From: Candidatus Poribacteria bacterium
GTDB lineage: Bacteria; Poribacteria; WGA-4E; WGA-3G
DNA: 64,000 bases
Direction: 5' to 3'
Assembly: GCA_965261115.1 (NCBI GenBank)
Contig: OZ253447.1
Span: 3,402,011 to 3,466,010 of the forward strand
Part shown: one piece after another, positions 11,333 to 55,350 of the stretch
Layout: every line of letters begins with the position of its first letter
Position numbering within the stretch: the stretch's first letter is position 1
Position numbers and translations under genes: made by a program
The notes under the pieces: generated by a model
What the model was told of the DNA's origin: nothing
The model's database searches: none
The model's input: the letters and a program-made list of their open reading frames with translations, nothing else

Positions 11333-11844
11333 TTTAAACGCCCTTCTGTCAAATCTCCATGCTTCAGTTTGCGGGATGTAGACGACATAGGGGTTGATAG
11401 TCCAAATAACCTAAACTGTTTTCAAAACAAATCGTCGGTTGTGATTGATGTGTTGTCGGAACGCTCGTCAATTGAGACGATCACGTAAAAGCCCGCACAC
11501 CTCTTCGGGCATCCGTTGCATGTATAGGGTAGCAGGTGTAAAAACGGCACCCCTTGATAAATCACATGTTGCATAAGATCAAGCACTTCGGGACATAGCT
11601 GGCTTGGCAGCTATTGTGGAGCGACACTAAGACGGTGGACTCTCAGAGAAAACCGCATGCCTCGCAATGAGAGTATGAAGCACAAGTCCTAACCTTCAGG
11701 TTGTGGGTGCCTTGACAAAATAGACGTATTATGTCAGGGAACCTTTATTGGATATACTTCTGTTTCTGGTAGAGCAGTGTAGGTTGAACTGATGCCTATA
11801 TTTAATAATTTTAGGCTAATTTTTTAGTATGAGTCAGATTTTTC

Positions 11845-26937: not shown

Positions 26938-27141
26938 TATGCCGTCCGAGAAGCTGCGTGAAGTGCTGCAAGTTAATGATGCGTTATCAAAACTCCGAGA
27001 CTAAAACTCCCGTGCTTTAGCAGGGAGATACAGTCTCGCCCTCGTTAATTAGACCACGGGTCTACATTGAAAATAAATTTGATCTTCTAACCTTTTTGTG
27101 GTATAATACCTGTATAATCTAACATAAAAAAGGTTTTTAGA

Positions 27142-27555
27142 ATGAGATTAGAAACACCAGATTTAGTATATCAAACAACCAGATATTCTACATACGCCTG
27201 TGAGTATCATATCATTTGGTGTACGAAATATAGACGATCTGCTCTGTCTGATGAAATTCAAGCACGTTTCAAAGAACTTGTATTAGAATCAGAAGAGAAA
27301 TACGGATTCATTGTTCGTGCTATAGAGACAATGGCTGACCACGTGCATTTGTTGATGAGTATTCCACCAACCGAAAATGTAAGTATCATGGTTGGCAAAA
27401 TAAAAAGCATGACAGCCAAAGTATTGCGTGAAGAGTTTCCTCACCTAAAGTCAAGGTTGCCTAACCTGTGGACGCGTTCCTATTTTGTAGCCTCTACCGG
27501 GGGCGTGACATTAGAAGCTTTAAAGCAATATGTAGCATCTCAAAAAGGTGTCTAA
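27142..27555 (+). CDS. tnpA: IS200-type HuH Y1 transposase TnpA
   Basis: 137 aa. HVHLL HuH motif and a C-terminal Y (YFVASTGG). Classic IS200 length. Confidence 0.9.
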   Translation: MRLETPDLVYQTTRYSTYACEYHIIWCTKYRRSALSDEIQARFKELVLESEEKYGFIVRAIETMADHVHLLMSIPPTENVSIMVGKIKSMTAKVLREEFPHLKSRLPNLWTRSYFVASTGGVTLEALKQYVASQKGV

Positions 27556-28320
27556 TGCCAAGTTTCTACCGAACAAAAACACTGAAAATAGAAGAACAAC
27601 CGATATTCTCTGAAGTGAACGCTGCGTCTGCTAACATTAACGGGACAAGAAGTCGTAGGCGTTGATATAGGCGAAATACACCCGATTGTCTCTCACGACG
27701 GGCAAGACACACATATCTACAATGGACGGTATATTAGATCACTATACCGCTATAGAAATAAAGTGCTTGCCGAGTTTAGTCAGACGATCCGTCGGTGTAA
27801 ACGCCATTCAAAACGCTGGTGGAGATTGACGCGTCGGAAGTGGAAACGCATACGAAAGATTGATAACCAAATCAAAGACGCACTCCATAAACAGACGACA
27901 AAGTTTGTGAAATACTGCGAAGTGAAAGGTATTGGTACGATAATACTCGGCGACCTCACAGGTATCCGAAACACTATCAACTATGGCAAACGTGCGAATC
28001 AGAAACTCCACCAGTGGGCTTTCAGTAAGATAGGGGAGTTGATAACCTACAAAGCAAAATGTTTAGGTATCAAAGTCAAAACGATTGACGAATCCTATAC
28101 TTCGCAAACTTGTCCAAAATGCGGTAACCGAAAGAAACCAACACATAGAAACTATACCTGCACATGCGGATTTGAATATCACCGCGACGGTGTAGGTGCG
28201 CTGAATATCAGACGAAAGTATCTGGGCCACTTCGGTGTCCCCGTAGTGGCGGAAATGGGATTTTCCCGCATGACACCGCCCTTGGGCTTTCGCTTGGAAG
28301 TCCCTGTTGCCTCGTCTTAA
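27555..28320 (+). pseudogene. tnpB: TnpB (IS605 OrfB) remnant: internally deleted and frameshifted
   Basis: A TnpB-like N-terminus (YRTKTLKIEEQ) runs straight into the RuvC-I region (GVDIGEIHPIV) in another frame. The C-terminal zinc finger CPKCG..CTCG and RuvC-III (HRDGVGALNI) are retained. Total coding is about 250 aa, against about 400 aa expected. Confidence 0.65.
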
Positions 28321-28416
28321 ACACGAGGAATGTTTCTAAAAGGAACAAAAGAACCACCCTTGTTTTAGCTGGGTGAGTATGTCAGTGAACTGATGTAAGA
28401 AGAGGTATATCAAAAG

Positions 28417-49413: not shown

Positions 49414-51243
49414 TTATTCGCGTTTTTCACCGGGTTTTCGTCGAAGTTTTGAGGCATAACTATCGCCTTCAGGATCGTAGGAAACGAACACTTGTCCGTC
49501 TTCTACAACCAGTCGCGGTACAGTCCGATGACGACCATCGCGTTCGGGACCTCGCATGACAGCAAACTGTGCCTCGGTCATATCTTCAACCATATCACCC
49601 CATCGGTCCTGAGGATCAAGCACACCACCGCCCCAATTTACGTTTTTCGATTGATACTTAATCAGGACCCCGCGTCTGGGGATCGGATTCTTCCACACCA
49701 AGGCACCGTGCGTGCAACCGCCGTCCATAAAGAAAAGCACATCCCCTGCCTTCATAACGGGTTGTACCACCAAGCCCATCGTGTCGTCACACGTCCGAAT
49801 CCCGCGTGGCATAGAGTACTGCGTCTTATGGGAACCGGGTACACACGCGAAGCCGCCGAGTCCGGGTTCGACATCGCGCAATTGCCATGTAATCGTGACA
49901 GTCTCAGCATAACTGCGTCCGTTCTTAAAAGCATAACCGCGTGAGGGTGTCATCGGTTCATTTCCATCGTGCAGTGAGTGTCCCGATGTGCCTTGAACGG
50001 CGCAGAATACGGTCGCGCCCCCCATGCGATAGCCGCTACCGCCCATCCAATTCATTCGCTGCACAACCTCAGGATGCGCAATCATGCGTCGAAATGGCGC
50101 GTTATAAGGATCCGGTAGGTCTAACAAGCCCGGCAGGAGCGGACGACCTGTTCCTGCTTGGCTGATTGATCCGCGCGCCAGTTCCTCGCCTACGACGATA
50201 CGATCTTGGAATTTATCCACAGCCTCATTGGCTTCTGCCAGCCACTGCTCGTCCATCAGACCGCGCACCACCAGATACCCGTTTAGGTCCCAAAAATAGA
50301 ACTCTTTCTCATCAATGCCTGAATTCGGGTCGCGCATATAAATTGATGGATGAACGATGGACGAATCTTCCTCTACCCACGTCTCTTCGCCATCTGTGTT
50401 TAGTACAGGTGGCGGACTCGAACCCTTATATCCGGGAACATACATGACCGCCTTTTGTGCAGGTGTCGCTTCGTCCGCCCATCTGGGTAAAGATTCAGTT
50501 TCCGAGTAAGGTCCAGGTGGATTGGATTGAACCGCTGCACGCGCGGCATACCAATAACTCAACAATCTTTTCGGTTCGTTTTTCCAGGGGCGAACGCCTT
50601 GGAGCGTAGGTACCGCGACCAAAAATAGATCGCCTGCCTTGAGTTCTGGCTGCACCAGTACCCCCATATCATCAACGCCGGTTGCCAAATCGTCGGGTGT
50701 TTCAACGTTGCTCTTGTGGCTCGCCTGAACAACAACGAATCCACCGTCGCCTTCGGAAACATCTTCCAATGCCCAGACCGCTTTCACACCTTGGCAACGC
50801 CTCTGACCGTTTTGTTGGCGATATGCCAAGGACGGATTCCTCGGTTCATCGCCGCCGACGAGCGGTGCCTCTACTTCACCTTCCCGCTGCCCTAACAACC
50901 GTGGTGCCTGATCGAGCCGGAAACCATGTCCCACAATCTGGTTCAAATACCAGACTAATTTGGGTTGTACCAGTAGGTCGCGGAACAATTCGCGGTGCGG
51001 ACTGTCCCCGCCTAACAGCATCTCACTATCTTCAATTGCATCTAATGCCTCATTGAGTGCTGCGACCTCTTCTTGACTGAGAACACCTGGGATGTGTAGG
51101 TAGCCTGCTACATCAAAAGCGTAATTCTCTTCGTTGGTCATAAGTTCATTATCCATTTGTTCCTCCTTTTCATCATTCATTGAAGTTCTTCGTGCTGTGA
51201 ATAGATCTAACAATTCCTTTACCGAGATGTGTTTATCCAACAA
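49414..51243 (-). CDS. protein with two PhyH-like dioxygenase domains
   Basis: Two similar motifs, GGFVVVQASHKSN and GGFACVPGSHKTQ, each in a PhyH-like context. 609 aa is about twice the PhyH length. Confidence 0.6.
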   Translation of the reverse strand: MLDKHISVKELLDLFTARRTSMNDEKEEQMDNELMTNEENYAFDVAGYLHIPGVLSQEEVAALNEALDAIEDSEMLLGGDSPHRELFRDLLVQPKLVWYLNQIVGHGFRLDQAPRLLGQREGEVEAPLVGGDEPRNPSLAYRQQNGQRRCQGVKAVWALEDVSEGDGGFVVVQASHKSNVETPDDLATGVDDMGVLVQPELKAGDLFLVAVPTLQGVRPWKNEPKRLLSYWYAARAAVQSNPPGPYSETESLPRWADEATPAQKAVMYVPGYKGSSPPPVLNTDGEETWVEEDSSIVHPSIYMRDPNSGIDEKEFYFWDLNGYLVVRGLMDEQWLAEANEAVDKFQDRIVVGEELARGSISQAGTGRPLLPGLLDLPDPYNAPFRRMIAHPEVVQRMNWMGGSGYRMGGATVFCAVQGTSGHSLHDGNEPMTPSRGYAFKNGRSYAETVTITWQLRDVEPGLGGFACVPGSHKTQYSMPRGIRTCDDTMGLVVQPVMKAGDVLFFMDGGCTHGALVWKNPIPRRGVLIKYQSKNVNWGGGVLDPQDRWGDMVEDMTEAQFAVMRGPERDGRHRTVPRLVVEDGQVFVSYDPEGDSYASKLRRKPGEKRE

Positions 51244-51371
51244 AATCGTATTTATGAGATATGCTATAGTGATTCTGACAAAAGGTCTGTTTCGTCAAGT
51301 CTACCCCAGAAGCACAGCCGCTAAGAGTATGAATAGAATACATATAATAAAACAACTAAGGAAGCCGTTTA

Positions 51372-52172
51372 TTACAATGCAAGAGTGAGAACCTGTCTGA
51401 TTTTACTATGACTCTCTTCTAACGGATAACAGTCGTCAGCGACGGTTCGGAAGTAATCTATTGACTTCCGACTGACTTTTGTTCGATCTCGTATGATCCC
51501 AACAGAGCGAAAATCAGGGAGCTTCCATGCTTTAAATTCATAGAGAGCGATTGTTGCTTGATTGACTTTTCTATCCGTGGGCAGGGCGTAGACGAAAAGC
51601 GGCGTTCTCATCCCGTTTATTCGGCAGTCTACTTTATATCTACCATCAGGGTCATGTTCTTTGTGAAACCAGTCCAATTCAATACGATCTTTTGAAACGA
51701 CGCTATACATCATCTTTTTAAACTCACTCATGAATGTTTTTCCATGGGCATTTTTCCAAGGTATAGATGTCACGCTCGTTATCTTCAGCAGTGACTGCGC
51801 AAATGCGTATAGGGCATCTCCATAATCGGTGCCCCTAATTTCAAGTATCAATTCGCCGTCTCGATCCTTAACTCCGAACGCAGAAAGGGCTCTTGATATA
51901 ATATCTTGACGGATACCTCTAAAGAGTTGCTGCTCATCTATGTCATAGGTCAGATGCATGTAGGTATGCCCTTCATCAGAAAGTATCCACCCTTCAGATT
52001 CTTTCTTTAAAATAATAGAGATGTGGTCCCCGTCGTTGAATCTGAACGGCGTATACACGTAGAAACGGTCTTTCCCATCAGGGACAAGTTCTATCTCTGT
52101 TGAAATGCTATCAATAAAATCCTTCTCTATAGTCCCAATAGACATGATTTTACCTCCTGTGATACTACCCAA
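51372..52172 (-). CDS. hypothetical protein adjacent to TnpB right end
   Basis: 266-aa ORF in which I recognise no family. Its start lies 119 bp downstream of the tnpB stop. Confidence 0.55.
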   Translation of the reverse strand: MGSITGGKIMSIGTIEKDFIDSISTEIELVPDGKDRFYVYTPFRFNDGDHISIILKKESEGWILSDEGHTYMHLTYDIDEQQLFRGIRQDIISRALSAFGVKDRDGELILEIRGTDYGDALYAFAQSLLKITSVTSIPWKNAHGKTFMSEFKKMMYSVVSKDRIELDWFHKEHDPDGRYKVDCRINGMRTPLFVYALPTDRKVNQATIALYEFKAWKLPDFRSVGIIRDRTKVSRKSIDYFRTVADDCYPLEESHSKIRQVLTLAL

Positions 52173-52174
52173 CG

Positions 52175-52400
52175 CTTAAAGGCGTGGGCTTCGGTTTCAT
52201 AGCGACTGCGGTTTTCGCTCAAGCGTCCACCGTCTTATTATCGCTCCACCAGCAGGCGATTAGTCCGAATCAGATCGGCATTATCGTGGCTTAGGTCACG
52301 GGTATCCCCGCCCGCAAGATATTTTTAGCAGCGTTTATGTCTCTGTCGTGGTGTGAACCACATTCGGGGCATGTCCACTGCCTATCAGAAAGCGTTAGGT
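52175..52400 (-). ncRNA. candidate TnpB-associated omega-RNA (right-end element RNA)
   Basis: Inference from the general IS605 architecture, in which the omega-RNA overlaps the tnpB 3' end and extends past the stop to the RE boundary. Not validated by structure. Confidence 0.3.
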
Positions 52401-53403
52401 TTTCGTTGTGGTAGCCACAATCAGAGCAAGGCTTCGTTGTCGCTGTCCACTGTCCCGCTTTCAATAATGTTTTGCCATATTTGGCACAGGTCCATTGAAG
52501 TATTGATGAGAACTCACCGAAGGCAAGGTCAGATGTTTTGCGTCCCCAAAGCTTTTTCATGCCTTCAAGGTTGAGCGTCTCTATCGCGATTCTATCGTAT
52601 CTACGGACAAGACGAAGTGCGAGTTTGAAAAACCAGTCCCGTCTTTTTTCTCTGATTTTTTTATGCAGACGGGCAAGGTGTCGTTTCGCACGATACCACG
52701 CATTTGAACCTTTTTGCTTTCGGGAGAGTGCTTTATTTGCTGAACGGATAGCATTTAGCATGCGTTTATAGAACTCTGGCGACTCTATTTTAATGCCGTC
52801 TGAAAGTGTGAGAAATGTTTTCATACCGAAATCTGCCCCTGCCTCATGACTGGTCAGTGGGAGTTTTTCGGAAGTCTCACAATCTTCACACGATAGATAT
52901 AAATAGTAATCTCCTACATTATCACGTTTGATCGTTATAGTTTTGATAGTGCCAGTCCACTTACGGTGTTTCCAAAATGTAAAGGATTTGTCTAAACAGT
53001 TGATTTTTATACGATTGCCTTCAATCTCATATCCTGCTTGTGTGAACGTCAATGAGTTATATTTGTGGCTCGGTTTGATTTTAGGCTTGCCTACTTTGCG
53101 AGGGGACAATCCTTTCTTTTTCGCTTTAAGATAATCAAAAAACTTTTCATAACCGAGGTGAATACGTTTGGCAACTTGTTGTATCACTTGACTCGGCAGT
53201 TGATTCCAATGCGGTTTTGTTGTTCGCTTCAACTTCGTTATATGACGGCAGATACGACCAAAACCGGCATACTTGCCATACATACGATAATAACGCCTCT
53301 GCAATAAAATCAAGTGAACATGCACGTCATGCAAATCGTCAAGCAGATTGCCAATCTGTATCATATTAGACTGATGATAAAACTCATATTCATAGGTTGT
53401 CAT
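52291..53403 (-). CDS. tnpB: full-length TnpB (IS605 OrfB / IS1341-type RNA-guided nuclease), no adjacent TnpA
   Basis: 370 aa. RuvC-I ADFGMKTF, RuvC-II IETLNLEGM, zinc finger CSDCG..CPECG, RuvC-III HHDRDINAAKNI. Confidence 0.9.
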   Translation of the reverse strand: MTTYEYEFYHQSNMIQIGNLLDDLHDVHVHLILLQRRYYRMYGKYAGFGRICRHITKLKRTTKPHWNQLPSQVIQQVAKRIHLGYEKFFDYLKAKKKGLSPRKVGKPKIKPSHKYNSLTFTQAGYEIEGNRIKINCLDKSFTFWKHRKWTGTIKTITIKRDNVGDYYLYLSCEDCETSEKLPLTSHEAGADFGMKTFLTLSDGIKIESPEFYKRMLNAIRSANKALSRKQKGSNAWYRAKRHLARLHKKIREKRRDWFFKLALRLVRRYDRIAIETLNLEGMKKLWGRKTSDLAFGEFSSILQWTCAKYGKTLLKAGQWTATTKPCSDCGYHNENLTLSDRQWTCPECGSHHDRDINAAKNILRAGIPVT

Positions 53404-53500
53404 GGTATATCAAGTATCAAGTCCTTAACCCCTTCACAGTGGGTAGGCAGACACGTAACCTTGCGATTACGCTGTGAATGTCTGCCAACTTGATACTATA
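53404..53500. repeat. IS605-type left-end subterminal hairpins upstream of tnpB
   Basis: Nested inverted repeats TCAAGTATCAAGT..ACTTGATACT and GGCAGACA-N25-TGTCTGCC immediately upstream of the tnpB start. Confidence 0.45.
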
Positions 53501-53922
53501 ATTAGACTACACTTCGTAGGTGAATATCAAATTTATTTTTTAACATTTACACAATTAGCGGGAAACCTATATCACAAAGCTAAAGCATTGGGCTTTACGC
53601 CCGAATGCCCGTAAAAACCACTGAAGAAAAACACATATTCTGATTAGGGTCAAACAAATTCTTAAGCACGATTTACCTAATGTCTTTCATTTTTTAAGTT
53701 CTTCCGATGTCCCAGTCCGTTTTATCCCCTGCAAAGCTGAGAGGGTAGCAGACGCACCGTGCGGTATGCTTCGCAGTGCCACCCGAACTGGTTTAAACGG
53801 TATAACACAAAAGCAAAAGATTGCCAATTTAGGTTATGCATGGTTCATATAAAAATAGTATTTACAATCAGGAATATCGTCAAATGGGAGATGGACACAA
53901 CTAACCCTTGGTGAGCTTGTGG

Positions 53923-55350
53923 CTACAAACACCATTCGTAAGGACCGGGACCTGTCCGGCAAACCATCTCGCTAATTTGCTGTCGCATCTGCGCGATGCG
54001 GTTCTGGTGTTCCGGACGATCTGAAACGTTTCGCATTTCGTCCGGGTCTGTCTTTAAGTCGTACAGTTCATCAATATCAAAACGGTTCCGAATATATTTC
54101 CAGTGTCCATCTTTTACCATCACACACGCTGCCAGTTCTTCGGGTGCATCGGCATTGTGATAGATCGCATCGAGGCTGGCGATTTCAGCGAAGATCGGTT
54201 GACGTTCCGGTTGTTGTCCGTTCAAAATTGCCTCCGCAACGGATCGCCCATCAATTGGCGTTTCCGGCACCTGATCCGCGAAACGCAACAACGTCGGCAT
54301 CAGATCCACACCCGCCAGCGGAGTTGTGACTCGAAAGCCGGACGGCAAATGGTGCTGCCATGAGAGCAGACACGGCACCCGCACCGAACCTTCATACATC
54401 AGACACTTCTCGGTAAAGCCGTGGTCGCCGAGCAACTCACCGTGATCACTCATAAAGGCGACAACCGTATTCGTTCCCTCAAGCGCATTCAGCAAACGAC
54501 CGACTTGATTGTCAATGTGCGTAATTAGGGCATAATAGTAAGTCATCATTCTCTGGAATTCAGCGTCAGTGACCGTTGAAGGGATACGAAATTTGCCTCG
54601 CGTTTGGAATTCGGGTTTCCCATCAAGTGGATCGCGCAACGAAGGGGATAGCGGCACCTCTTCTTCTCGATAGCGTGCCGGCAGGTCCGACGGCACGAGA
54701 ATACGAGGGTGCGGGTCTTTGATACTGGCAAATAGGAAGAACGGAACATCATCATCTTGTTGCTGAATGAATTCGAGTGAACGGTCGATTGTCCAAGTGG
54801 TGCGTTGCTGTCGAGGATCGGTGATTGTCCCAAATTCCAAGATATTTCCGTACTGTGTCATTCCGGGTGCCTTTGAACGATAGAGGTTTTCAACACCTTC
54901 TGTTTCAAAATAATCAAAGAGTGGGTCTGGATGGTCTCCAAGATAACGATAGGTACACCAGAAATCAGAAAACCCGTGTTGTGGACGATGGTCGTCCCCC
55001 AGATGCCACGGTCCAACGATACCACAGCGATAGCCAGCACGTTTAAGCACATCCCCGATAGTGATGCGGTCATGCGGCAGGTAGCCGCCGAATTCACCCA
55101 TCCTTTGGGTCCCATAGTTTCGCAGTTGCAAATGGGCATGTGGATAGAGTCCAGTCAACCAACTTGCCCGTGCCGGTGAGCAGACCGGTGACGCACAGTA
55201 AGCATTTTCAAAACAGACCCCGCCCGCTGCCAACCGATCCAGATGTGGCGTTTGAACGATCGAACTACCAGCGAACCCAGCGGCATCCCACCGCATCTGA
55301 TCACACATAATGAGTACGATATTGGGTCGAGAGGTCGTCGTGCTGTCCAT
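53923..55350 (-). CDS. sulfatase (formylglycine-dependent)
   Basis: C-x-P-x-R motif PVCSPARASWLTG. N-terminal IVLIMCDQMRWD. Confidence 0.9.
   Translation of the reverse strand: MDSTTTSRPNIVLIMCDQMRWDAAGFAGSSIVQTPHLDRLAAGGVCFENAYCASPVCSPARASWLTGLYPHAHLQLRNYGTQRMGEFGGYLPHDRITIGDVLKRAGYRCGIVGPWHLGDDHRPQHGFSDFWCTYRYLGDHPDPLFDYFETEGVENLYRSKAPGMTQYGNILEFGTITDPRQQRTTWTIDRSLEFIQQQDDDVPFFLFASIKDPHPRILVPSDLPARYREEEVPLSPSLRDPLDGKPEFQTRGKFRIPSTVTDAEFQRMMTYYYALITHIDNQVGRLLNALEGTNTVVAFMSDHGELLGDHGFTEKCLMYEGSVRVPCLLSWQHHLPSGFRVTTPLAGVDLMPTLLRFADQVPETPIDGRSVAEAILNGQQPERQPIFAEIASLDAIYHNADAPEELAACVMVKDGHWKYIRNRFDIDELYDLKTDPDEMRNVSDRPEHQNRIAQMRQQISEMVCRTGPGPYEWCL

What the first reader, a model, noticed from the sequence alone, without database searches (positions are those of the whole stretch)
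51372..53520. Solo full-length TnpB (OMEGA nuclease) with left-end hairpins, presumptive omega-RNA region, and a 266-aa protein of unknown function immediately downstream
tnpB (52291-53403) is intact with all RuvC and zinc-finger motifs. No tnpA is nearby, so this is an IS1341-like solo element. Nested inverted repeats upstream (53404-53500) look like the LE. The region 52175-52330 should encode the omega-RNA scaffold, and its 3' guide would derive from DNA right after the RE. The RE is squeezed to 119 bp before the next gene (51372-52172), an unrecognised protein. That gene's promoter must lie inside or read through the element, so the element may be domesticated or co-transcribed with a cargo-like gene.
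Basis: partly seen in the sequence, partly recalled or inferred. Interest (0 to 1): 0.5.

Follow-up and report, generated by a model that had tools for sequence, protein, structure and literature searches.

The report
Ordinary TnpB insertion sequence, displaced gene
This is an ordinary mobile element that carries only an RNA-guided nuclease gene (TnpB) and its guide RNA; it sits where the first gene of a widespread two-gene cassette should be, so the gene downstream is a leftover host gene, not cargo.

Summary
The features are real. The minus strand at 53610..52159 holds a 1,452-bp tnpB-only IS200/IS605-family element in a Candidatus Poribacteria genome. TnpB (370 aa) keeps the RuvC triad and the zinc finger. 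The last 159 nt (52317..52159) form a structured guide RNA (omega-RNA) supported by covariation across 12 sequences. The element starts right after a TTAC and ends in ...TATCAC.

The nested inverted repeats at 53404-53500 are real and covary. They lie in the tnpB leader; the terminal hairpin is at 53573-53592.

The downstream protein is not unrecognised and not cargo. It is 257 aa (ATG 52145) with a DUF1828 domain and a restriction-endonuclease-like C-terminal fold. In 66 of 81 related loci from many phyla a ~160-aa DUF6978 gene lies directly upstream, and none has TnpB. The closest TnpB copies (95% and 91%) sit elsewhere without DUF1828.

In the five nearest relatives, 473 bp holding the DUF6978 gene fills the space between two TTAC sites that the element fills here. 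The predicted guide covers the ribosome-binding site and start codon of the DUF1828 gene and matches the intact allele.

A tnpA gene lies 24 kb away in the window. This is a new member of a known kind, of low interest.

The parts
52159..53610 (-). Whole tnpB-only IS200/IS605-family element (1,452 bp)
   Evidence: Alignment with the 95% and 91% TnpB copies in other contexts shows where similarity starts and stops. Comparison with the element-free allele in L001 and L005-L008 gives the same ends.
53611..53614 (-). TTAC target motif (TAM) abutting the left end
   Evidence: The left flank ends ...GGTTTTTAC in the window and in the relatives L001, L005, L007 and L008. L002 and L085 also have TTAC| at the left end.
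53573..53592 (-). Left-end subterminal imperfect hairpin CCCAATGC-TTTA-GCTTTGTG, preceded by the 4-nt DNA guide AAAG (53593-53596), 18 nt from the cleavage site
   Evidence: The hairpin is conserved across the family and matches the right-end hairpin in design. The guide covaries with the target motif: TTAC/AAAG, TTAA/AAAT, TTAG/AAAC. The window copy has one more mismatch (G to T) than L002.
53501..53530 (-). Promoter-like site for tnpB (TTGATA, 18 nt, TCTAAT; family consensus TTGACA, 17 nt, TATAAT)
   Evidence: Conserved block in the left-end alignment. The scan reports an overlapping site at 53524-53495. It is a consensus match only.
53414..53496 (-).
   Evidence: RNAalifold on 7 family members gives 31 pairs, 10 with compensatory changes.
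52291..53403 (-). tnpB, 370 aa, RuvC D191/E275/D355 and zinc finger C326/C329/C345/C348
52159..52317 (-). Omega-RNA scaffold (159 nt, starting 27 nt inside the tnpB reading frame, stop codon included)
   Evidence: 35 consensus pairs, 14 with compensatory changes; 96% of cells paired; 0 of 500 shuffles reach this; slid controls give 29-44%. The covariance model R1 scores 178 bits here.
52168..52188 (-). Right-end hairpin CCCACGCC-TTTA-AGCGTTGGG, followed by TAGTATCAC; the terminal TCAC is at 52159-52162
   Evidence: Helix 7 has 4 of 8 pairs with compensatory changes. All family members end in ...TATCAC and then diverge.
52139..52158 (-). Predicted guide segment AGGAGGTAAAATCATGTCTA, which is the ribosome-binding site plus start codon of the DUF1828 gene
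   Evidence: It is the first unconserved sequence after the right end. TTAC plus this sequence matches the intact allele in L001 and L005-L008 exactly. In the window it is preceded by TCAC. The guide length is assumed.
51372..52145 (-). DUF1828 gene, 257 aa (host gene, the second gene of a DUF6978-DUF1828 cassette)
53611..53836 (-). Retained leader and promoter region of the cassette, now upstream of the element
   Evidence: 89% identical to L001 5290-5514. nhmmer finds it only in L001, L005, L007 and L008. No covariation could be shown.

Best explanation
The locus is a non-autonomous, tnpB-only insertion sequence of the IS200/IS605 family (IS1341-type organisation). It belongs to a large family found in Candidatus Poribacteria.

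Shown:
- It spans 53610..52159 on the minus strand and begins immediately 3' of a TTAC.
- It has matching imperfect hairpins with TTTA loops near both ends.
- It encodes a TnpB with a complete RuvC triad and zinc finger.
- Its last 159 nt fold into a conserved, covarying omega-RNA scaffold that ends exactly at the right end.

Inferred from the established IS605/TnpB mechanism (PMC8612924, PMC10055086):
- A TnpA supplied in trans would excise the element as single-stranded DNA and reinsert it 3' of TTAC. An intact tnpA exists at 27142-27555.
- TnpB loaded with the omega-RNA, whose guide is the flank AGGAGGUAAAAUCAUG..., would cut the element-free allele (TTAC plus that sequence). That forces repair from an element-bearing copy.
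- The occupied site is protected because TCAC replaces TTAC.

Shown for the surroundings:
- The downstream DUF1828 gene is the second gene of a two-gene cassette (DUF6978, then DUF1828) that is conserved across phyla and resembles the PADLOC candidate defence system PDC-M24.
- In the five nearest relatives, a 473-bp segment with the DUF6978 gene lies between two TTTTAC repeats. In the window the element occupies exactly that interval.

Inferred for the surroundings:
- The DUF6978 gene was lost by a deletion between the two TTTTAC sites. The cause could be microhomology, TnpA chemistry or recombination between two copies, before or after insertion. The order cannot be told.
- The DUF1828 gene is now transcribed by read-through from the cassette promoter and the element's own promoter.
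For: - TnpB identity and intact motifs.
- Mobility and boundaries: copies at 95% and 91% identity in unrelated contexts share sequence from the left end to ...TATCAC and nothing beyond.
- Target motif: TTAC abuts the left end, and the element-free alleles carry TTAC at both junctions. The target motif covaries with the left-end guide across the family.
- Omega-RNA: 35 pairs, 14 compensatory, 96% paired, 0 of 500 shuffles reach this, slid controls 29-44%. Model R1 finds an independent second copy at 11593-11716, E 8e-15.
- The guide plus TTAC matches the intact allele in L001 and L005-L008, and matches the window only with TCAC.
- Not cargo: 66 of 81 DUF1828 loci have the DUF6978 gene directly upstream, none has TnpB or the omega-RNA, and TnpB relatives lack DUF1828.
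- tnpA in the window: Y1_Tnp 6.2e-38.
- No terminator-like site on the minus strand between tnpB and the DUF1828 gene.
Against: - There are no expression or activity data.
- The folding energy of the single sequence is not unusual (z -0.86), so the RNA rests on covariation alone.
- Helix 7 could be conserved as a DNA hairpin for TnpA rather than as RNA.
- The window's left-end hairpin has one extra mismatch compared with L002, which might impair excision.
- Compatibility of the tnpA at 27 kb with these ends is untested. Their left ends share only short motifs.
- Only one full copy is visible in 64 kb, and identical TnpB proteins in other samples sit at orthologous sites. Recent transposition is therefore not shown.
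- Whether the element caused the loss of the DUF6978 gene or landed in an allele already deleted cannot be decided.
Confidence: 0.88

Rival explanations
1. The TnpB element is domesticated, or it carries the downstream 266-aa gene as cargo, and the two work as a unit.
For: The two genes have the same orientation. The ribosome-binding site starts 1 nt after the right end and no terminator is predicted between them. Both lie in one low-GC island.
Against: None of 81 DUF1828 loci has TnpB or the omega-RNA nearby, and 66 of them have a DUF6978 gene upstream instead. The TnpB copies at 95% and 91% identity lie in other contexts without DUF1828. The right-end boundary lies upstream of the gene. The catalytic residues, both ends and TTAC are intact. 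Syntenic relatives have the same DUF1828 gene without the element.
Confidence: 0.03
2. The element is a stranded fossil. It still codes for TnpB but can no longer move, for example because the left-end hairpin is damaged or no compatible TnpA exists. TnpB and the omega-RNA would then have no current role.
For: The window's left-end hairpin has an extra G-to-T mismatch compared with L002. Identical TnpB proteins found in several samples sit at orthologous sites. Family members differ by 5-28%, so there has been no recent burst. The nearest tnpA-bearing element has a truncated tnpB and only loosely similar ends.
Against: The TnpB reading frame and all catalytic and zinc ligands are intact. The omega-RNA matches the family model over its full length at 178 bits. 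Copies at 95% identity in different sites show fairly recent movement within the lineage.
Confidence: 0.3
3. Regulatory coupling. The guide segment of the omega-RNA is the Shine-Dalgarno sequence and AUG of the DUF1828 gene on a read-through transcript. TnpB binding or processing of that transcript would then control translation of the orphaned DUF1828 protein.
For: The guide positions 52158-52139 are AGGAGGUAAAAUCAUGUCUA. No terminator is predicted between the genes. The DUF1828 gene is still under purifying selection on average.
Against: The arrangement follows automatically from insertion at the TTAC next to the ribosome-binding site. It is seen in one genome only. There are no expression data, and dN/dS cannot isolate the period since the insertion.
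Confidence: 0.05
4. The protein is a type V-F CRISPR effector (Cas12f/Cas14) rather than a transposon TnpB.
For: PADLOC Cas12f models score up to 3.7e-48.
Against: No CRISPR-like repeat family occurs in 51000-54000. NCBIfam places the protein in guided_TnpB. It is bounded by IS605-type ends and a TTAC. Its best solved relative from a natural source is ISDra2 TnpB.
Confidence: 0.01

Closest known systems
ISDra2 TnpB with its right-end-derived guide RNA (Deinococcus radiodurans; PMC8612924; PDB 8exa/8h1j)
   Same: The proteins align over their full length (7e-49) and the RuvC residues and zinc finger coincide. The guide RNA scaffold overlaps the 3' end of tnpB and ends at the right end, and the guide comes from the flank.
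   Different: ISDra2 carries tnpA and uses TTGAT (from my own knowledge). This element has no tnpA and uses TTAC. No Rfam family matches the RNA, and its activity is untested.
IS608 of Helicobacter pylori (IS200/IS605 family, TnpA mechanism)
   Same: It inserts 3' of TTAC. It has imperfect subterminal hairpins with a T-rich loop at both ends. A 4-nt guide (AAAG) lies 5' of the left-end hairpin, and the fourth base of the guide pairs with the fourth base of the target. The IS608 details are from memory; the covariation here is.
   Different: IS608 carries its own tnpA. Here TnpA must come in trans, and the right end finishes in TCAC rather than TCAA (the IS608 value is from memory).
Geobacillus stearothermophilus ISGst tnpB-only elements and palindrome-associated miniature elements (PMC10055086)
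   Same: Most tnpB genes lack an adjacent tnpA and are thought to be moved in trans. Gene-free miniature elements that still encode guide RNAs coexist with them. The window shows the same trio: the full element, a 379-bp miniature element at 11338-11716, and a tnpA-bearing element at about 27 kb.
   Different: The host phylum and sequence family differ, and nothing has been tested experimentally here.
TldR (nuclease-dead TnpB-like repressors)
   Same: An RNA-guided TnpB-family protein lies next to a host gene whose ribosome-binding site region is complementary to the guide.
   Different: Here the RuvC triad is intact, the transposon ends and target motif are present, and the link to the neighbouring gene is not conserved. 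It is not a member.
PADLOC candidate defence system PDC-M24 (components A and B, not validated)
   Same: The DUF1828 protein matches PDC-M24B (5.4e-12). Four of 15 DUF6978 partner proteins from relatives match PDC-M24A weakly (best 1.8e-4). Other family members sit next to type I restriction specificity genes and Uma2 endonuclease genes.
   Different: The matches are distant. Component A is missing in the window. No defence function has been shown for either family, and no paper in the library mentions PDC-M24.

Membership tests
TnpB RNA-guided endonuclease (NCBIfam NF040570; Pfam PF01385 + PF07282) | Sequence match above the curated cutoffs | tested here: met
   NF040570 scores 240 bits against a cutoff of 100. 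PF01385 scores 86 against 30.5 and PF07282 scores 73 against 26.3. The narrower model NF038281 (IS200_TnpB) scores 225, below its cutoff of 425.
TnpB RNA-guided endonuclease | RuvC D-E-D triad and CxxC...CxxC zinc finger | tested here: met
   D191, E275, D355, C326, C329, C345 and C348 are invariant in a 12-sequence family alignment and align to the ISDra2-type motifs.
TnpB RNA-guided endonuclease | Structured guide RNA encoded at the 3' end of tnpB and the right end | tested here: met
   Covariation: 14 of 35 pairs have compensatory changes and 0 of 500 shuffles reach the observed values. The covariance model scores 178 bits. RNA expression was not tested.
TnpB RNA-guided endonuclease | RNA-guided, target-motif-dependent DNA cleavage | not testable with these tools
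   This needs an interference or in vitro cleavage assay.
IS200/IS605 family, tnpB-only (IS1341-type) organisation | Subterminal imperfect hairpins at both ends and no terminal inverted repeats | tested here: met
   The left-end hairpin CCCAATGC-TTTA-GCTTTGTG and the right-end hairpin CCCACGCC-TTTA-AGCGTTGGG are conserved and covary.
IS200/IS605 family, tnpB-only (IS1341-type) organisation | Insertion 3' of a specific tetranucleotide without target duplication | tested here: met
   TTAC abuts the left end. The element-free alleles read TTAC|AGGAGG..., and no duplication flanks the element.
IS200/IS605 family, tnpB-only (IS1341-type) organisation | No tnpA inside the element | tested here: met
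   The 1,452 bp hold only tnpB. The nearest Y1 transposase gene is at 27142-27555.
IS200/IS605 family, tnpB-only (IS1341-type) organisation | Mobilisation by a Y1 TnpA in trans | not testable with these tools
   Copies at 95% and 91% identity in other contexts imply past movement. Compatibility with the window's TnpA is unknown.
TldR / domesticated TnpB | Inactivated RuvC site, loss of transposon ends, conserved link to the target gene | tested here: not met
   The triad is intact, both ends and the target motif are present, and none of 81 DUF1828 loci has TnpB or the omega-RNA.
Type V-F CRISPR-Cas (Cas12f) | Adjacent CRISPR array | tested here: not met
   No repeat-spacer family occurs in 51000-54000.
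DUF1828 (PF08861) / PADLOC PDC-M24B | Sequence match | tested here: met
   PF08861 scores 83 bits against a cutoff of 22. PDC-M24B gives 5.4e-12 and 4.6e-10. PADLOC has no curated cutoff, and the match is distant.
PDC-M24-like two-gene cassette | Presence of component A next to component B | tested here: not met
   The DUF6978 gene is absent from the window. It is present in 66 of 81 related loci and in four of the five nearest relatives; L006 keeps only the 3' half.
PD-(D/E)xK nuclease fold (C-terminal half of the DUF1828 protein) | Fold similarity and catalytic motif | tested here: inconclusive
   [not shown]

The most novel reading that the evidence does not exclude
Elements of this IS605 family may repeatedly remove gene A (DUF6978) of a candidate defence cassette while sparing gene B. 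This is seen here and, independently, in L006. In the window the orphaned nuclease-like DUF1828 gene would depend on read-through of the tnpB and omega-RNA transcript. Its Shine-Dalgarno sequence and AUG form the guide segment, so TnpB loading could gate its translation. That would be an accidental rewiring of a defence-like effector under transposon control.
Probability: 0.05. Interest if true: 0.5.

Novelty: new member of a known kind. Interest (0 to 1): 0.2.

Why it matters
For TnpB biology this adds little. It is one more well-delimited tnpB-only element, with a defined TTAC target motif, both ends, a covariance-supported guide RNA and a natural element-free allele. It could serve as a clean test case, or as a compact nuclease candidate from an uncultured phylum.

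The side result is more useful. The 'unknown' neighbour belongs to a two-gene cassette, DUF6978 then DUF1828, that has spread across phyla. The DUF1828 protein has a type III secretion chaperone-like N-terminal domain and a restriction-endonuclease-like C-terminal domain, and it matches an unvalidated PADLOC candidate defence system. The window holds a natural knockout of gene A.

Tried and rejected
- Rfam on 50500-54500 at E up to 1 gave no match.
- The metagenome scan for TnpB relatives returned only 11 loci. Look-ups of TnpB proteins seen on several contigs returned the same orthologous site from different samples, not new insertion sites.
- The look-up of the 100%-identical TnpB (P0121) found no record.
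- The conserved 225-nt leader upstream of the element gave no compensatory pairs in five close sequences, and nhmmer found it only in the nearest relatives. A structured RNA there is neither shown nor excluded.
- Literature searches for DUF1828, DUF6978 and PDC-M24 found nothing functional.
- The third protein search, with the DUF6978 protein, returned only 20 hits.
- My first guess for the left-end hairpin (GGGC-GTAAA-GCCC at the very tip) was dropped once the family alignment showed the conserved hairpin 18 nt inside.
- The cargo, domestication and CRISPR readings were rejected as set out under the rival explanations.
Full report
**Observation**

Both ORFs exist as described: 52291..53403(-), 370 aa, and 51372..52172(-), 266 aa from a TTG. 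The 370-aa protein is a TnpB:
- It matches Pfam OrfB_IS605 and Cas12f1-like_TNB, and scores 240 bits on NCBIfam guided_TnpB against a cutoff of 100.
- It aligns over almost its whole length to ISDra2 TnpB (8exa, 7e-49).
- In an alignment with 11 relatives at 72-95% identity, D191, E275, D355 and the four zinc-finger cysteines are invariant.

The region 51100-53950 is a low-GC island, 0.37-0.45 against 0.50-0.57 in the flanks. Relatives of both proteins come mainly from Candidatus Poribacteria.

**Boundaries of the element**

The closest TnpB copies, at 95% (L002, L003) and 91% (L004), lie in unrelated gene contexts. Aligned to the window, similarity runs from about 207 bp upstream of the ATG to ...GGGTAGTATCAC, 131 nt past the stop codon, and then ends abruptly. 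Nine further family members show the same right end...TATCAC, followed by unrelated sequence. The right end is therefore at window 52159.

On the left, the flank ends in TTAC (53614-53611) and the element starts at 53610. The element is 1,452 bp.

Each end has an imperfect hairpin with a TTTA loop:
- Left: CCCAATGC-TTTA-GCTTTGTG at 53573-53592, 18 nt from the end.
- Right: CCCACGCC-TTTA-AGCGTTGGG at 52168-52188, 9 nt from the end.

Across the family, the four bases 5' of the left hairpin covary with the flanking tetranucleotide:
- AAAG with TTAC (window, L002).
- AAAT with TTAA (L086, L096, L102, L105).
- AAAC with TTAG (L089).

This is the rule by which IS605-family TnpA reads its target through a DNA guide in the left end, as summarised in PMC10055086.

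They form a conserved structure of 31 pairs, 10 with compensatory changes. They lie between a promoter-like site (53530-53501) and the ATG, so they belong to the tnpB leader, not to the terminus.

**Omega-RNA**

I aligned the last ~220 nt of 11 elements plus a second window sequence.
- RNAalifold predicts seven helices with 35 pairs, 14 of them with changes on both sides.
- 96% of cells are paired. None of 500 column shuffles reaches any of the five measures, and sliding the 3' partners gives 29-44% pairing.
- The folding energy of the single sequence is unremarkable (z -0.86), so the evidence is comparative.
- Rfam has no matching family.

A covariance model built without the second window sequence recovers that sequence at 11593-11716(+), 57.5 bits, E 8e-15. 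Upstream of it, 11332-11398 matches the left ends of L105, L086 and L102 at 80-82%. The window therefore also holds a miniature element of about 379 bp without tnpB, of a sister subfamily.

**The downstream gene**

All homologues start at the Met encoded by ATG 52145. The TTG at 52172 lies in the right-end hairpin. The AGGAGG ribosome-binding site (52158-52153) begins one base after the right end.

The 257-aa protein has a Pfam DUF1828 domain (1.6e-23) and matches the PADLOC candidate PDC-M24B (5.4e-12). It has 552 relatives in the species-representative genome collection, at about 50% identity across many phyla.

An AlphaFold2 model (pLDDT 85) shows two domains:

A catalytic motif could not be assigned, and Foldseek gave only weak hits.

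**Not cargo**

- None of 81 related DUF1828 loci has TnpB next to it. The only TnpB signal is one weak fragment about 2 kb upstream in L017. None has the omega-RNA (0 hits in 784 kb).
- In 66 of the 81, an ORF of about 160 aa lies directly upstream on the same strand, often overlapping or within 13 nt.
- That protein matches Pfam DUF6978 weakly (best 30.7 bits against a cutoff of 29.6). Four of 15 members match PDC-M24A (best 1.8e-4).
- Its model (pLDDT 89) has no informative fold match.
- Several of the loci without it place DUF1828 after type I restriction specificity genes, Uma2 endonuclease genes or helicase genes.
- The ancestral unit is therefore a two-gene cassette, plausibly defence-related but unvalidated.

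**What happened at this site**

L001 carries the 95% orthologue and the same downstream genes, a PhyH-family gene and a creatininase gene. Its homology to the window stops at ...GGTTTTTAC (window 53611) and resumes at AGGAGGTAAAATCATG. Between these points L001, L005, L007 and L008 hold 473 bp with the DUF6978 gene. That segment begins right after one TTTTAC and ends with a second TTTTAC. The window holds the element instead.

TTAC occurs only 5 times in 1,491 nt of that region, so the coincidence of both junctions with TTAC is not accidental. TTAC plus the sequence after the right end matches all five relatives exactly. In the window the only match is the junction itself, with TCAC in place of TTAC. 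The predicted guide would therefore target the element-free allele and spare the occupied one, as the homing model expects (PMC8612924, PMC10055086).

The DUF6978 gene was lost by a deletion between the two TTTTAC repeats. Three routes give the same product:
- Microhomology slippage, before or after the insertion.
- TnpA-type strand exchange with the second TTAC.
- Recombination between two inserted copies.

I cannot order the events.

In L006 the leader and the 5' half of the DUF6978 gene are independently replaced by a ~115-bp left-end remnant of the same family.

The DUF1828 gene keeps every invariant residue of its family. Its dN/dS against relatives is 0.18-0.35, although this does not isolate the time since the insertion.

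**Expression (inferred)**

The cassette's conserved leader (53611-53836), the element's promoter-like site, tnpB, the omega-RNA and the DUF1828 gene all point the same way. No terminator-like site is predicted on that strand between tnpB and the DUF1828 gene. Read-through transcription is the simplest way the gene is expressed.

**tnpA**

No tnpA is adjacent. The window does hold an IS605-type element at about 27.0-28.4 kb. It has an intact Y1 transposase gene (27142-27555; Pfam Y1_Tnp 6.2e-38) followed by a tnpB that lacks its N-terminal half. Its end hairpins follow the same CCC...TTTAG...GGG design, but only short motifs are shared. Supply of TnpA in trans is possible but unproven. None of the fetched loci of close family members (L002-L004, L085-L092, L096-L110) has a tnpA.

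**Verdict**

This is a textbook tnpB-only IS200/IS605 element with its guide RNA, a new member of a known kind. The suggestions of cargo or domestication are not supported.

Two points go modestly beyond routine. The element sits exactly in place of gene A of a widespread, uncharacterised two-gene cassette. The predicted guide is the ribosome-binding site and start codon of the surviving gene B. Both follow from insertion at a TTAC next to that ribosome-binding site and need no special function. Interest is low.

Noticed in passing
window 11338-11716 (+): A miniature IS200/IS605 element of about 379 bp without tnpB. It has a left-end-like segment (80-82% to the left ends of L105, L086 and L102) after TTAA, and an omega-RNA-like right end at 11593-11716 (model R1 57.5 bits, E 8e-15) that ends ...CCTTGAC. 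It lies between an aspartate-semialdehyde dehydrogenase-like gene and an HU-like gene (gene names from my reading of the translations, not tested) and resembles the L092 subfamily.
   Followed up: partly
window ~27000-28390 (+): An IS605-type element with an intact tnpA (27142-27555, Y1_Tnp 6.2e-38). The tnpB after it lacks its N-terminal half: the ORF is 27763-28320 and homology starts at 27664. It is a possible source of TnpA in trans for the other two elements. That makes three IS200/IS605-family elements in 64 kb.
   Followed up: partly
window 53611-53836 (-); L001 5290-5514: The ~225-nt leader and promoter region of the DUF6978-DUF1828 cassette is 89% identical to L001, more than the neighbouring coding regions (~85%). 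It is strongly conserved in L005, L007 and L008 as well. It folds into long helices but shows no compensatory changes in five sequences, and it was found only in the nearest relatives.
   Followed up: partly
L006 4640-4745: In another Poribacteria genome, the cassette leader and the 5' half of the DUF6978 gene are replaced by a ~115-bp left-end remnant, including the promoter-like site, of the same IS family. The remnant is fused in frame-independent fashion to codon ~57. The DUF1828 gene is intact. This is a second, independent loss of gene A linked to this IS family.
   Followed up: partly
L087 / L088 2735-2790: The right-end terminus plus flank, TATCAC-TTACGTTAAGT, occurs twice 21 nt apart. 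This looks like a short duplication of the right-end junction.
   Followed up: no
L005-L084 (DUF1828 loci): 15 of 81 DUF1828 genes lack the DUF6978 partner upstream. In three of these the gene follows a type I restriction specificity gene (Methylase_S), in two a Uma2 endonuclease gene and in two a helicase gene. This is a defence-island-like context.
   Followed up: partly
[not shown]
   Followed up: partly
window 51372-52145 vs L001 and neighbours: The DUF1828 gene is 95% identical in DNA to L001, whereas the flanking PhyH-family, creatininase and membrane-protein genes are 85-89% identical. This suggests stronger constraint on the cassette or more recent exchange.
   Followed up: no
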